Numbered from the stretch's first letter, positions 50,557-54,930 are shown. The stretch is 64,000 nucleotides of DNA from Escherichia coli (GCF_030013595.1 NZ_CP122768.1), one strand, 5' to 3'. The notes: a model not told the origin generated them from the sequence alone. Numbers and translations: made by a program.

Positions 50557-51195
50557 ATGCCCGGGCGCTTTGAACTAAAACCAACCCTGGAGAAAGTCTG
50601 GCACGCGCCGGACAATTTTCGCTTCATGGACCCGCTGCCGCCGATGCATCGTCGGGGGATCATTATTGCCGCCATTGTATTGGTAGTCGGATTTCTGCTT
50701 CCATCTGATGATACGCCCAACGCGCCGGTGGTGACGCGTGAAGCGCAGTTAGATATTCAGTCGCAATCACAACCACCGACAGAAGAACAGCTGCGGGCGC
50801 AATTAGTCACGCCACAAAATGATCCTGATCAGGTGGCTCCGGTCGCTCCAGAACCAATACAGGAAGGCCAGCCAGAAGAGCAGCCGCAACCCCCCCAAAC
50901 GCAACCATTCCAGCCAGATAGCGGAATTGATAATCAATGGCGCTCTTACCGTGTCGAACCCGGTAAAACGATGGCACAGCTGTTCCGCGACCACGGGCTG
51001 CCCGCTACCGATGTCTATGCAATGGCGCAGGTAGAAGGCGCGGGTAAGCCGCTGAGTAATTTGCAAAACGGGCAGATGGTGAAAATCCGCCAGAACGCCA
51101 GCGGCGTGGTGACGGGCTTAACCATTGATACGGGGAATAATCAACAGGTCCTGTTTACCCGCCAGCCGGATGGCAGTTTTATTCGTGCGCGGTAG
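50557..51195 (+). CDS. ytfB: OapA/LysM-domain cell-division-associated protein (212 aa)
   Basis: ORF track 50521..51195 trimmed to MPGRFELKP; Pro/Gln-rich linker. Confidence 0.85.
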
Positions 51196-51295
51196 ATGAA
51201 GGGTCAACCAGAAGCCAGCTAAGGAGCGTCTCTTTGATGACCTTACGTCTGGCTTCCAGTGCCTGGGGGGAAACCATACTGATGTGTTGACATCC

Positions 51296-51317
51296 TCCAC
51301 GCCCTGAAGGACGTGGA
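51296..51317. repeat. Subterminal hairpin of the IS element (tnpB-distal end; shared core GCCCTGAAGGACG)
   Basis: tccac-gccctgaagga-cgtgga; 13-nt core identical to the hairpin at 52998-53017. Confidence 0.6.
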
Positions 51318-51329
51318 TCCCTGCTACGT

Positions 51330-52538
51330 TCAGGCTGTCGCCTGAATCATTTCGGTGGGTTCCTGCTTCAACGAGCGGCCTGACTGCACCATCTCTCCAC
51401 AGGCAAGAACGGCGTGCCCCGCCGCTAAAATGTTACGAGCGCCATTTACATCGGCGTTCGCTGTATATCCACATACCTGGCATCTGAATTTAATTTGTGA
51501 CAGGCGATTTTCTTTCGCTGTATGACCACAGCACGCGCAACGCTGGCTTGTGTACGCTGGCGGAACAGCAAGCACCTGACCGCCACGCCAGAGCTGCTTG
51601 TACTCAAGCTGGCGGCGCATTTCATACCAGCCCTGATCCAGTATCGAACGGTTTAAACCTGATTTTGCCCGGACATTGCGCCGCGGCTGGCTGACCGTAC
51701 CCGCTGCTGACTTTGACATGTTGCTGACCTTCAAATCCTCAATGACTATCATTGCGTGGTTTTTGCTGACGGTCGTTGTGACTTTGTGAAGGTAGTCCCT
51801 GCGGATATTTGCGATACGGGAATGCAGTCGCTGTATTTTGCGTTTCTGCTTCTGCCAGTTATTGCTGAATTTGACCTTGCGGCTTAACTGTCGCTGAAGT
51901 CTCGCCAGCTTCTTCTGTTTTTTCTGAAAACTGTTTACAGGCTCAAAGACTGTGCCATCTGACAGCGTGGCGAGTTTAACCACGCCAGCATCCAGCCCGA
52001 CCATTGATGCTGAAGGATGAACCGGAGTTGATACTTCACTTTCTGTCTGAATACTGATGTACCACTTACCGCAGGACTGGCTGACCGTGACATTTTTCAC
52101 AACACCCGTGACCTGACGGCTATTCCGGTAGCGCATCCAGCCCAGTTTCGGCAGAAAAATACGGCTGTTTTCCTGATAGAGCTTAACGCCCTACGGGTAG
52201 CGGAATGCATCATTCTGTCCCCGCTTTTTGAATCGGGGAAAAGCAGCCCGCTTCTGGAAGAAGTTTTTGTAAGCCCGCTCAAGGTCTTTCAGTGACTGTT
52301 GCAATGGCTGTGACGGGGCATCTTTAAGCCATTGCGTTTCAGTGGCATTTTTCCACTCAACCAGCCAGGAAGCCATTTTCCCGTAAGGGATGTATTTATT
52401 ACCGGCCTCATGATTCTCATTCTGAAGCGCCAGAGCACGATTGAAAACGAAACGACATGCGCCTGCGAAGCGCCTCATTTCACGCTCCTGTTGACCACCG
52501 GGTCTTAACTGGAATTTAAATGCCTGTCGTCGTTTCAC
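51330..52538 (-). pseudogene. tnpB: IS605-family TnpB (RuvC-like RNA-guided nuclease family), interrupted by one in-frame TAG
   Basis: ORFs 52191..52538 and 51330..52136 share one frame; my hand translation across the gap gives ...DAFRYP-stop-GVKLYQENSRIFLPKLGWMRYR...; C-terminal Zn ribbon CACCGH...CQVCG; RuvC-like D/E/D residues. Confidence 0.8.
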
Positions 52539-52608
52539 AGGTCAAATGATACTTTGGTCTGTGAAAAAAGAAACCTATATCCGGCGTGGAAGGTATTGTG
52601 TTTTCCTG

Positions 52609-53020
52609 ATGCATGTTCACCTGGTCTTTGTCCCAAATACCGACGCCAGATTTTTGACCATGACGCGACAGAAAAACTACGCACTTACTTTTCAAATGTA
52701 TGTGCTGATTTTGAAGCTGAACTGGTTGAAATGGATGGCGAACCAGATCACGTCCATTTGTTAATTAAATATCCTCCCAAACTGGCGATATCCAGTCTGG
52801 TAAACAGCCTCAAAGGCGTATCGGGTAGGTTACTGCGACGAGATCGACCAGATATTGCAGTCAGGTATTACTACAAAGGCGTTTTGTGGAGTCCTGGCTA
52901 TTTTGCCAGTAGCTGTGGAGGTGCGCCAATATCCGCCATCCGTCAATCCATTGAACAACAGCAAACACCTGGTCAGGTGGAAAACCGCGCCGTATATCCC
53001 CGCCCTGAAGGACGGGGTTT
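52609..53020 (+). pseudogene. tnpA: IS200-type Y1 (HuH) transposase TnpA, -1 frameshifted near N-terminus
   Basis: MHVHLVFVP in one frame, then KYRRQIF...DHVHLLI... (HuH motif) in another; switch within gtcccaaatac homopolymer context; no in-frame stop until 53159, so C-terminus undefined. Confidence 0.7.
52998..53017. repeat. Subterminal hairpin of the IS element (tnpA-distal end)
   Basis: cccc-gccctgaagga-cgggg; same loop and core as 51296-51317. Confidence 0.6.
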
Positions 53021-53033
53021 TACGGCACACCGG

Positions 53034-53357
53034 ATAAACCAGGCCAAGCGTATGCTGGTTGATCAAATAATATCCCCCAAGCGCAGCAATATTAATATAC
53101 ACCTGCAATGGGTCGATATCTGGCTTAAAAATATTGTGTTTCTTCCCTTCATCCAATAAGGATTCCATTAACTGCAAGTGCGCATGATTAATTTCTAAGA
53201 GACGCTGTGATTTTACATAATGCACACCTTTACTTTGGTTTTCACTATGCACAATTTTTAAAAACCAAGGATTAGCAATATAATATATCCTAGGTAAAAT
53301 CGATGATTTTTTCAATGGCTTTTTGTGGCTGGTTAACCTGCTGATTAACAAACGCAC
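53034..53357 (-). pseudogene. ytfA: Truncated ORF, N-terminal about 108 codons, ytfA-like; C-terminus replaced by IS sequence
   Basis: 175-codon ORF 52830..53357 whose last third is antisense to tnpA; identity with K-12 ytfA is from positional memory only. Confidence 0.45.
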
Positions 53358-53603
53358 CGATACCGACAGCGTAGAATAATTACATACCGCACAACAAGAA
53401 TGTATGGTGTAAGGCGTTGTCAGTCATCTCCCTCCCTGGGTGCATCTTTATATCCGTGATGAGCGATTTTTGATATTAATATCTTTTACTATCCGCTATT
53501 TTCACCACTTCAGAAAACAAACTTATTTTTATTAATATCGATTATTTATTCTGTGCACATTCAGCTGCGATATTTATAAAAAAATTAAACAGGCAAAAAT
53601 ACA

Positions 53604-54398
53604 ATGACATTACCAACCACTATTTATTCATTTCCTGCATATTCACCCCGTTTTTCGTCCACCGACAAACCAGTAAAATTAAAATTTCATCAATACGCAC
53701 GCGCTACATTACTTTCAAATCGAGGAAGAGATCATAATTGCGATGGCAGACATACTGTTGAGATCCACAAACTAGATCTCTCAGGCTGGCAAGCATTCAA
53801 TAAGTTAGCGACGAGGTGTAATGCTTACGATGGAATAACAATGAATGGTGATAATTCTTTTGGATGGAACCATGAAGCTACATTAGATAATATTCACGCC
53901 CAGAAATACAATAAAGCTTACGCGGGTGCGAGGTTAACCGCAGAACTGAAATATTTATTGCAAGATGTTGAATCCTTCGAACCCAACAGTAAATACACAA
54001 TACACGAGGTTGTTTTGGGACCTGGTTATAGTACTCCAGACTATACCGGCCAAACGATAGGATACGTTGTAACCCTTCCTGCCCAAATGCCTAATTGCTG
54101 GTCATCTGAACTACCAACAATCGATCTTTATATCGACCAACTTCGCACTGTTACAGGCGTTTCTAATGCCCTCGGATTCATCATTGCTGCATTGCTAAAC
54201 GCGTATTCTGATTTACCCCATGATTTGAAAATTGGTCTGCGTTCCTTATCAAGTTCAGCAGCAATCTACTCGGGTTTGGGTTTCGAGCGAGTGCCGCAGG
54301 GCCGAGACATAAGGTGCGATCGTATGCATCTAACGCCAGCAAACCATCCTGAATTATGGACACAAGAGAATGGTGAATGGATCTACTTGCGAAACTAA
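53604..54398 (+). CDS. yjfZ: Uncharacterised protein YjfZ (264 aa)
   Basis: ORF track; AT-rich gene with long AT-rich upstream region. Confidence 0.85.
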   Translation: MTLPTTIYSFPAYSPRFSSTDKPVKLKFHQYARATLLSNRGRDHNCDGRHTVEIHKLDLSGWQAFNKLATRCNAYDGITMNGDNSFGWNHEATLDNIHAQKYNKAYAGARLTAELKYLLQDVESFEPNSKYTIHEVVLGPGYSTPDYTGQTIGYVVTLPAQMPNCWSSELPTIDLYIDQLRTVTGVSNALGFIIAALLNAYSDLPHDLKIGLRSLSSSAAIYSGLGFERVPQGRDIRCDRMHLTPANHPELWTQENGEWIYLRN

Positions 54399-54420
54399 TA
54401 CCTAACGAAAAATAGAAAGC

Positions 54421-54450
54421 AAAACGCCGACCAGTGGTCGGCGTTTTTAC
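54421..54450. terminator. Bidirectional terminator between yjfZ and rplI
   Basis: aaa-acgccgacc-agt-ggtcggcgt-ttttt. Confidence 0.65.
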
Positions 54451-54468
54451 GTCTCGTTGAATAACGAA

Positions 54469-54930
<462 letters not shown>

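What the first reader, a model, noticed from the sequence alone, without database searches (positions are those of the whole stretch)
53034..54398. ytfA remnant and yjfZ form a second AT-rich block abutting the IS element
The 175-codon ORF 52830..53357 is chimeric: its first two thirds or so are flank-derived, and the rest is antisense to tnpA and the IS hairpin. That fits a gene truncated by the IS insertion. yjfZ and the 250-bp AT-rich spacer between the two genes are uncharacterised. The IS may have targeted this locus, or the truncation may be old and shared by many strains.
Basis: inference. Interest (0 to 1): 0.3.

Follow-up and report, generated by a model that had tools for sequence, protein, structure and literature searches.

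The report
Dead regulator remnant plus orphan gene
This AT-rich block is what remains of a regulator gene (ytfA) and the operon it controlled, first gutted by an old deletion and later split by an IS609 insertion, next to an intact Escherichia-only gene of unknown function (yjfZ); it is ordinary and already annotated.

Summary
IS609 ends at 53033/53034, the 175-codon ORF 52830..53357 crosses that boundary, and 53034-54398 is 39% GC against 51% for the window.

- ytfA is split, not truncated. Codons 82-180 lie right of the IS. Codons 181-215 survive left of it at 51286..51179.
- The IS was not the inactivating event. A deletion shared with IS-free K-12 had already removed codons 1-81 (the whole DNA-binding domain), the promoter region and the start of the neighbouring reductase gene.
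- No complete E. coli genome out of 5426 combines the IS with an intact ytfA 5' end.
- Full-length YtfA (215 aa, TetR family) survives in about 58% of E. coli genomes and in Salmonella. There it sits divergent to a 6-8 gene CoA-transferase/oxidoreductase/transporter operon.
- In the window, about 7.3 kb of that operon is gone. An ~85-105 bp reductase-gene remnant (53333-53438) remains inside the "spacer".
- The insertion is old and shared: same site in 1742 genomes, with copies about 2% diverged. It is intact in O157:H7 and decayed here.

yjfZ is an intact DUF2686 (YjfZ/YjiC) gene restricted to Escherichia and present in about 46% of E. coli genomes. Low-confidence models suggest a GNAT-like fold.

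Interest is low.

The parts
51179..51286 (-). ytfA 3' fragment: codons 181-215 plus stop. It is separated from the rest of the gene by the IS and overlaps the ytfB 3' end.
   Evidence: The empty-site reconstruction reads ...[40 protein letters not shown]. It aligns to full-length ytfA nt 541-648. PGAP annotates it as a TetR/AcrR pseudogene fragment.
51287..53033 (-). IS609 (IS200/IS605 family) copy, 1747 bp. On the minus strand the left end is at 53033 and the right end at 51287. It carries no terminal inverted repeats and no target duplication.
   Evidence: Boundaries come from the K-12 empty site. Related subterminal hairpins (CGTCCTTCAGGGCG core) sit at both ends. On the minus strand the element is preceded by TTTAT and ends in TCAA. 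The O157:H7 copy at the same site is annotated as IS609 family.
51330..52538 (-). tnpB/insQ pseudogene (Q116 -> stop, TAG at 52193..52191)
   Evidence: Compared with the intact 402-aa O157 TnpB. PGAP note 'internal stop'. Pfam OrfB_IS605 and Cas12f1-like_TNB.
52546..52976 (+). tnpA pseudogene. A 1-bp deletion at about 52633 shifts the frame, and the stop codon is changed TAG->CAG at 52974. As a result, plus-strand ORF 52554..53159 reads out of the IS into ytfA antisense.
   Evidence: Differences from the O157 copy, three-frame translation, ORF list, and Pfam Y1_Tnp on the intact homologue.
52830..53357 (-). 175-codon chimeric ORF. It has 24 out-of-frame or junction codons, then YtfA residues 97-180, then 67 IS-derived codons. 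It is judged an artefact, not a gene.
53034..53329 (-). ytfA middle fragment, codons 82-180 (start of the TetR_C_29 ligand-binding domain). It has a lineage-specific +1 frameshift from an extra T at 53286.
   Evidence: blastn to intact ytfA gives 95.6% identity. Pfam TetR_C_29 E=2.7e-24. In the full-length protein, TetR_N covers residues 19-59 and TetR_C_29 covers 83-201.
53333..53438 (+). Remnant of the 5' part of the SDR (3-ketoacyl-ACP-reductase-like) gene, first gene of the lost operon (roughly codons 30-64). It is flanked by two deletion junctions: 53329/53330 and, within an ambiguous overlap, about 53411-53438.
   Evidence: blastn gives 83.7% over 86 bp, E=7.6e-16, to L004, and 81.1% over 106 bp, E=2.9e-18, to L005 4587-4691.
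53411..53603 (+). Native yjfZ upstream region (30-34% GC). It is collinear with strains in which yjfZ follows the MFS transporter gene.
   Evidence: Window 53411-55415 matches L005 11994-14000 at 97.4%. In K-12 the yjfZ/ytfA spacer is listed as H-NS- and RpoD-bound (PMC3946193). The consensus promoter scan is not above chance.
53604..54398 (+). yjfZ, intact 264-codon gene of the DUF2686 (YjfZ/YjiC) family
   Evidence: Pfam DUF2686 E=2.6e-151. dN/dS is 0.19-0.42 between alleles. Homologues are found only in Escherichia and Shigella.
54421..54447 (.). GC-rich hairpin terminator between the convergent genes yjfZ and rplI
   Evidence: 12-bp stem with 7 GC pairs; sequence

Best explanation
The block is the decayed end of a variable locus between rplI and ytfB.

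Ancestral state. The locus held ytfA, a 215-aa TetR-family repressor. It was transcribed divergently from an operon encoding an SDR, a sugar-phosphate isomerase/epimerase family (AP_endonuc_2) protein, an enoyl-CoA hydratase, a CoA-transferase, an FAD oxidoreductase and a transporter. In one E. coli haplotype yjfZ sits between that transporter gene and rplI.

Order of events in the window's lineage:
1. Two deletions occurred. One of about 0.54 kb removed ytfA codons 1-81, the divergent promoter region and the SDR gene start. One of about 7.3 kb removed the rest of the operon. An ~85-105 bp SDR remnant was left between them. After this ytfA had no DNA-binding domain and no native promoter.
2. 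IS609 inserted 3' of TT(T)AT, exactly between codons 180 and 181 of the dead gene.
3. A +1 frameshift arose in the ytfA remnant.
4. The IS itself decayed: tnpB gained a stop at codon 116, tnpA gained a frameshift and lost its stop codon.

Consequences. The 175-codon ORF is a by-product with no expected function. yjfZ is the only intact gene in the block. It is an Escherichia-restricted paralogue of yjiC. It is probably kept largely silent by H-NS on its AT-rich upstream region.

Inference, with weak support: YjfZ encodes a highly diverged GNAT-like (acyl-CoA N-acyltransferase fold) protein.

Shown: the anatomy, the breakpoints, the order deletion-then-IS, and the population frequencies. Inferred: H-NS silencing in this strain, the GNAT-like fold, and any activity of YjfZ.
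For: IS boundaries and the seamless K-12 empty site.

Full-length YtfA (215 aa) in E. coli, Salmonella and Citrobacter. TetR_N lies at residues 19-59 and TetR_C_29 at 83-201.

Intact haplotypes with the operon: L004 with TRAP transporter genes, L005 with MFS plus yjfZ, and Salmonella L013.

Breakpoints and the SDR remnant.

Counts in 5426 complete genomes:
- intact ytfA 5' end without the IS: 3147
- yjfZ present: 2512
- IS + yjfZ, the window type: 1742
- deleted type without the IS: 484 and 483 in two searches
- IS + intact 5' end: 0
- TRAP type 1446 and MFS type 1685

Age of the IS: copies differ by 31-38 of 1747 nt between lineages, and the O157 copy is intact.

yjfZ: DUF2686. Homologues exist only in Escherichia/Shigella, with the E. 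albertii member at the yjiC locus. dN/dS is 0.19-0.42.

Literature: ytfA is variable in E. coli and present in E. albertii and E. fergusonii (PMC6790063). The K-12 spacer is H-NS- and RpoD-bound (PMC3946193).
Against: The structure models are low confidence (mean pLDDT 37.7 and 49.3). No GNAT Pfam family or solved structure matches by sequence even at E<=10. The canonical Q/R-x-x-G-x-G/A motif is not clearly present (alignment). The GNAT assignment is therefore tentative.

H-NS binding was reported for K-12, not for this strain, and the simple promoter scan here is at chance level.

A CRISPRi screen reported expression changes when K-12 ytfA was targeted (bioRxiv 10.64898/2025.12.20.695731). 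Some residual activity of the remnant, or polar effects, cannot be excluded.

The order of the two deletions, and whether they were a single complex event, is not resolved.
Confidence: 0.85

Rival explanations
1. One reading: ytfA was a working gene that the IS insertion truncated and inactivated.
For: The IS lies inside the reading frame, between codons 180 and 181. Full-length homologues extend beyond the junction.
Against: K-12 lacks the IS but has the identical 5' deletion and is annotated as a pseudogene. No genome out of 5426 has the IS with an intact 5' half. The C-terminal 35 codons are retained on the other side of the IS.
Confidence: 0.05
2. The ytfA remnant, or the chimeric ORF, is expressed as a ligand-binding-domain-only protein with some regulatory or sequestering role.
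For: The TetR_C_29 domain is recognisable (E=3.7e-20). RpoD holoenzyme binding on the ytfA side of the spacer was reported in K-12. CRISPRi of K-12 ytfA changed dapE and bssS expression.
Against: There is no HTH domain and no native start codon. A +1 frameshift sits at 53286. The domain is cut at residue 180 of 215 and fused to 67 arbitrary IS-antisense codons. ORF structure differs between strains: 108-aa, 144-aa and 175-aa versions. The remnant diverges faster than neighbouring genes.
Confidence: 0.07
3. IS609 inserted at this exact site several times independently (site-specific homing), rather than once in an ancestor.
For: Occupied and empty sites occur on both flank haplotype clades. One clade holds the window and ECONIH1 (IS) with GMF065 (empty). 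The other holds O157 (IS) with K-12 (empty).
Against: The junctions are identical to the base in all copies inspected. IS copies differ by about 2% between lineages, as expected for co-divergence with the flanks rather than recent copies. From established knowledge of the IS200/IS605 family, these elements excise seamlessly. A single old insertion followed by several precise losses, or recombination, therefore explains the pattern more simply.
Confidence: 0.15
4. yjfZ is a spurious ORF in AT-rich junk DNA, not a real gene.
For: The distribution is narrow. The gene is absent from about 54% of E. coli genomes. Frameshifted or truncated alleles exist. No function is known.
Against: A 264-codon frame is kept intact across alleles about 3% diverged, with dN/dS of 0.19-0.42. 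A paralogue family (YjiC, about 40% identity) shares about 50 invariant residues. Two models converge on one known fold.
Confidence: 0.08

Closest known systems
E. coli K-12 ytfA (b4205) pseudogene, TetR/AcrR family
   Same: Same locus, same 5' deletion breakpoint, and same remaining TetR_C_29 region.
   Different: The window copy is additionally split by IS609 between codons 180 and 181 and carries a +1 frameshift at 53286.
Full-length YtfA-type TetR regulators (215 aa) of E. coli, Salmonella and Citrobacter, some labelled 'KstR2' by their sources
   Same: 80-97% identity over the retained part. Same position next to ytfB.
   Different: They have TetR_N (residues 19-59) and a divergent SDR / sugar-phosphate isomerase (AP_endonuc_2) / enoyl-CoA hydratase / CoA-transferase / FAD-oxidoreductase / transporter operon. 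Both are missing from the window.
IS609 (IS200/IS605 family; tnpA Y1 transposase plus tnpB/insQ)
   Same: Divergent tnpA and tnpB, subterminal hairpins, no target duplication. The copy at the identical site in O157:H7 is annotated as IS609.
   Different: In the window copy both genes are inactivated.
YjiC (E. coli b4325-type) and Pfam DUF2686
   Same: YjfZ matches DUF2686 end to end and shares about 40% identity and about 50 invariant residues with YjiC.
   Different: YjfZ sits at a different locus, lacks about 10 N-terminal-region residues found in YjiC, and occurs in only about 46% of E. coli genomes.
GNAT (GCN5-related N-acetyltransferase) superfamily
   Different: No sequence-level match, no clear acetyl-CoA-binding motif, and low model confidence.

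Membership tests
TetR/AcrR transcriptional regulators (ytfA) | N-terminal helix-turn-helix DNA-binding domain (Pfam TetR_N) | tested here: not met
   Only TetR_C_29 is detected in the window remnant. The full-length homologue has TetR_N at residues 19-59. Codons 1-81 are deleted.
TetR/AcrR transcriptional regulators (ytfA) | C-terminal ligand-binding/dimerisation domain homologous to the family | tested here: met
   TetR_C_29 E=2.7e-24 on the IS-removed reconstruction. 80-97% identity to 215-aa proteins.
TetR/AcrR transcriptional regulators (ytfA) | Uninterrupted reading frame of full length | tested here: not met
   5' deletion, +1 frameshift at 53286, and IS between codons 180 and 181.
IS200/IS605 family (IS609) | Y1 HUH transposase TnpA, with TnpB as accessory gene | tested here: met
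   The intact O157 copy at the same site has Y1_Tnp E=1.8e-41 and OrfB_IS605 plus Cas12f1-like_TNB. The window tnpB fragment matches the same families. Both window genes are pseudogenes.
IS200/IS605 family (IS609) | Subterminal hairpins instead of terminal inverted repeats; no target-site duplication; insertion 3' of a short AT-rich tetra- or pentanucleotide | tested here: met
   Related hairpins sit at both ends. The junction with the K-12 empty site is seamless. TTTAT precedes the left end and TCAA ends the right end. The comparison with family targets rests on established knowledge and was not tested here.
DUF2686 (YjfZ/YjiC family) | Full-length match to Pfam PF10887 above the curated cut-off | tested here: met
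   502.9 bits against a cut-off of 25, covering residues 5-264.
GNAT acyl-CoA N-acyltransferase superfamily (YjfZ) | GNAT fold (beta1-alpha1-alpha2-beta2-4-alpha3-beta5-alpha4-beta6-7) | tested here: inconclusive
GNAT acyl-CoA N-acyltransferase superfamily (YjfZ) | Sequence-level membership, including the acetyl-CoA pyrophosphate-binding motif Q/R-x-x-G-x-G/A after beta4 | tested here: not met
   No GNAT Pfam family at E<=10 for any of 18 members. No PDB sequence match. The conserved stretch is IDQ-x-x-TV-x-GV-x-N-x-x-GF, which is not the canonical spacing.
GNAT acyl-CoA N-acyltransferase superfamily (YjfZ) | Acyl-CoA binding and acyl-transfer activity | not testable with these tools
   Needs biochemistry.

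The most novel reading that the evidence does not exclude
DUF2686 (YjfZ/YjiC) may be an unrecognised, extremely diverged GNAT-fold family that arose within Escherichia, with yjfZ a paralogue captured at the hypervariable rplI-ytfB hotspot. Separately, the scatter of occupied and empty sites across two flank clades may record repeated natural scar-free excision of IS609, with copies whose tnpB is dead (as here) no longer able to enforce their own retention.
Probability: 0.35. Interest if true: 0.3.

Novelty: already known. Interest (0 to 1): 0.15.

Why it matters
It matters little beyond annotation hygiene.
- The 175-codon ORF should not be called a gene.
- ytfA in this strain is a pseudogene with three separate lesions.
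- The IS was not what killed it.

The locus is a tidy example of stepwise decay: an operon deletion, then an IS landing in the wreck, then decay of the IS itself. It also shows that the rplI-ytfB interval is a variable hotspot.

Two by-products could be useful. One is a fold-level hint for the uncharacterised YjfZ/YjiC family. The other is the fact that yjfZ is present in only about half of E. coli genomes, which bears on its proposed use as a species marker.

Tried and rejected
YahL and YdjO as YjfZ relatives. They are similar in size and grouped with YjfZ in PMC11057252. Neither matches DUF2686 and they align at only 17-21% identity. Rejected.

Remote homologues of YjfZ. An exhaustive phmmer search of 1.84 billion representatives gave only fragments of YjfZ/YjiC and two spurious repeat proteins.

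Sequence links to known structures or families. A profile search against PDB sequences, and Pfam at E<=10, gave nothing meaningful.

RNA families. An Rfam scan of 51000-54700 at E<=1 found nothing in the ytfA-yjfZ spacer. There were only sub-threshold HgcC and sot0042 hits at the tnpB 3' end and right IS end.

Promoters. The consensus promoter scan of the spacer gave 5 sites against 5.0 expected, so it is uninformative.

Structure prediction. It was run twice and both models are low confidence. I used them only for a fold-level hint.

Script error. My first script failed because a locus file was not yet available. This had no effect on the results.

Not run: the metagenome and GTDB genome scans, because the E. 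coli genome collection and the protein look-ups answered the question.

Full report
**Setting.** The window is an Escherichia coli chromosome segment. The local gene order is fklB, ytfB, an IS200/IS605-type element, a TetR-family remnant, yjfZ, then rplI-rpsR-priB-rpsF. Two pig isolates match 51100-54500 at 100% identity. In their RefSeq annotation the two TetR fragments, tnpB/insQ (internal stop) and tnpA (frameshifted, incomplete) are all marked as pseudogenes, and yjfZ is a DUF2686 family protein.

**Checking the observation.**
- K-12 MG1655 has no IS at this locus. Its sequence reads ...catactgatgtg|ataaaccaggcc.... The window has 1747 bp inserted exactly there, at 51287..53033.
- ORF 52830..53357 (minus strand, 175 codons) crosses this boundary. 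Its first 108 codons come from the flank. The last 67 codons plus the stop come from IS DNA, antisense to the tnpA 3' end and through the left-end hairpin.
- GC content is 0.393 for 53034-54398, against 0.510 for the window (profile).

**What ytfA was.**
- With the IS removed in silico, the reading frame continues ...[40 protein letters not shown].
- A protein search found 215-aa TetR/AcrR proteins in E. coli (P0006, a cluster of 2350 sequences), Salmonella and Citrobacter. They are 80-97% identical over the retained part.
- In the full-length protein, TetR_N covers residues 19-59 and TetR_C_29 covers 83-201. The window reconstruction matches only TetR_C_29.
- Nucleotide alignment to an intact allele maps window 53329..53287 to codons 82-96. 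Window 53285..53034 plus 51286..51179 maps to codons 97-215 and the stop. One extra base at 53286 shifts the frame.
- The IS therefore sits exactly between codons 180 (TAT) and 181 (CAC). The last 35 codons survive on the far side of the IS, overlapping the ytfB 3' end.
- The gene is split, not truncated.

**What was lost before the IS arrived.**
- Genomes with intact ytfA carry a divergent operon between it and rplI. It encodes an SDR, an AP_endonuc_2 (sugar-phosphate isomerase/epimerase family) protein, an enoyl-CoA hydratase, a 513-aa CoA-transferase and a ~690-aa FAD oxidoreductase. A transporter follows: either TRAP dctQMP (L004) or an MFS protein (L005).
- Salmonella has the MFS version (L013).
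- In strain 204446 the order is ytfA, the five enzyme genes, MFS, yjfZ, rplI. This is the arrangement from which the window type can be derived.
- blastn against these loci shows three matching pieces. Window 53033-53329 is ytfA. Window 53333-53438 matches roughly codons 30-64 of the SDR gene at 81-84% identity (E=7.6e-16 and 2.9e-18). Window 53411-55415 matches the DNA from just after the MFS stop through yjfZ and rplI at 97.4%.
- Two deletions therefore separate the window from the intact haplotype. One of about 0.54 kb took ytfA codons 1-81, the divergent promoter region and the first ~29 SDR codons. One of about 7.3 kb took the rest of the operon.
- K-12 has the same junction...tttttgtggc|tgg.... 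These deletions are therefore shared and do not depend on the IS.

**Order of events and population frequencies.** Counts are for 5426 complete E. coli genomes.

| Haplotype or feature | Genomes |
|---|---|
| Intact ytfA 5' half, no IS | 3147 |
| of which TRAP transporter type | 1446 |
| of which MFS transporter type | 1685 |
| yjfZ cassette present | 2512 |
| Window arrangement (IS + deleted ytfA + yjfZ) | 1742 |
| K-12 arrangement (deleted, no IS) | 484 and 483 |
| IS right junction fused to an intact ytfA 5' half (synthetic query) | 0 |

The IS is found only on the already-deleted background. The deletion came first, and the IS did not inactivate a working gene.

**The IS.**
- In O157:H7 the element at the identical site has intact genes. 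PGAP names its transposase 'IS200/IS605-like element IS609 family'. Its TnpA matches Y1_Tnp and its TnpB matches OrfB_IS605 plus Cas12f1-like_TNB.
- On the minus strand the element is preceded by TTTAT and ends in TCAA. It has related subterminal hairpins at both ends and no target duplication. From established knowledge, these are the hallmarks of the family.
- The window copy has Q116->stop in tnpB, a 1-bp deletion in tnpA, and a lost tnpA stop codon.
- Copies in three lineages differ by 31-38 of 1747 nt. The insertion is therefore old.
- Flank distances define two clades. One holds the window (IS), ECONIH1 (IS) and GMF065 (empty). The other holds O157 (IS) and K-12 (empty). Distances are 15-48 differences within clades and 67-81 between them, over 1842 columns.
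- Occupancy is thus polymorphic on both backgrounds. The simplest reading is one old insertion followed by seamless losses or recombination. Independent insertion at the same site is not excluded.

**yjfZ.**
- It is an intact 264-codon gene matching DUF2686 end to end.
- Word-indexed and exhaustive searches found relatives only in E. coli, Shigella and E. albertii. They fall into a YjfZ group and a YjiC group at about 40% identity. The E. albertii member sits at the yjiC locus next to uxuR.
- YahL and YdjO are unrelated.
- Between alleles, dN/dS is 0.19-0.42, so the frame is under some constraint.
- No paper in the library assigns a function.
- Sequence-level searches do not support membership, and the canonical CoA-binding motif is not evident.
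- I treat 'GNAT-like fold' as a lead with perhaps 40% probability, not a finding.

**The spacer.**
- The 246 bp between the ORF start and yjfZ consists of the SDR remnant plus yjfZ's own upstream DNA.
- In K-12, genomic SELEX lists the yjfZ/ytfA spacer as bound by RpoD holoenzyme and by H-NS (PMC3946193). This fits AT-rich, largely silenced accessory DNA.
- Here the consensus promoter scan is at chance level, and Rfam finds nothing in the spacer.

**Verdict.** The interpretation needs correcting: ytfA was already dead from a deletion shared with K-12, the IS split rather than truncated it, and the insertion is an old polymorphism shared by a third of sequenced E. coli. All parts are already annotated in public records. 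K-12 ytfA is a listed pseudogene, and its variable presence across Escherichia has been published (PMC6790063). Interest is low.

Noticed in passing
window 52554-53159 (+): A second chimeric ORF crosses the same IS boundary on the opposite strand. The window's tnpA has lost its stop codon (TAG->CAG at 52974-52976). The post-frameshift tnpA frame therefore reads out of the IS, through the left-end hairpin, into ytfA antisense (201-aa ORF).
   Followed up: partly
window 51287/53033 site; L002 (K-12), L007 (O157), L006 (ECONIH1), L015 (GMF065): Occupied and empty IS609 sites occur within both flank haplotype clades. K-12 (empty) differs from O157 (IS) by 15 of 1842 columns. GMF065 (empty) groups with the window and ECONIH1 (both IS). 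This suggests repeated scar-free excision, or recombination, of an old insertion.
   Followed up: partly
window 53604-54398 (yjfZ); PMC11057252: A 2024 paper proposes YjfZ as a conserved E. coli/Shigella signature gene for qPCR. Its probe ACCTCAGCTTTAGACGAAATATATGGTGGT encodes TSALDEIYGG, which is the YjiC-type sequence. It has no match in the window within 3 mismatches. The yjfZ cassette is present in only 2512 of 5426 complete genomes.
   Followed up: partly
L004 865-3709, L005 10641-12983, L013 1428-3680, L014 3921-6323: The rplI-proximal end of the locus is a variable hotspot. Different genomes carry TRAP dctPQM genes, MFS + yjfZ, MFS + a hipA-like toxin pseudogene with IS1, or (in Salmonella) MFS + an EamA gene at the same place.
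   Followed up: partly
window 51274-51457 (-): Sub-threshold Rfam matches to HgcC (23.9 bits) and sot0042 overlap the tnpB 3' end and the right IS end. From established knowledge, this is where a TnpB guide (omega) RNA would be encoded. Its guide would then read into the ytfA 3' fragment.
   Followed up: no
window 53034-53603 compared with L002, L006, L007: The ytfA remnant and spacer diverge faster between lineages (4-13%) than yjfZ or ytfB (about 2-3%), consistent with neutral decay of the pseudogene DNA.
   Followed up: partly
L004 3730-9788; L005 4499-10548: The lost operon (SDR, AP_endonuc_2 sugar-phosphate isomerase/epimerase family protein, enoyl-CoA hydratase, CoA-transferase, ~690-aa FAD oxidoreductase, transporter) has no substrate assigned in anything I retrieved. 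Some sources label its TetR regulator 'KstR2'.
   Followed up: no
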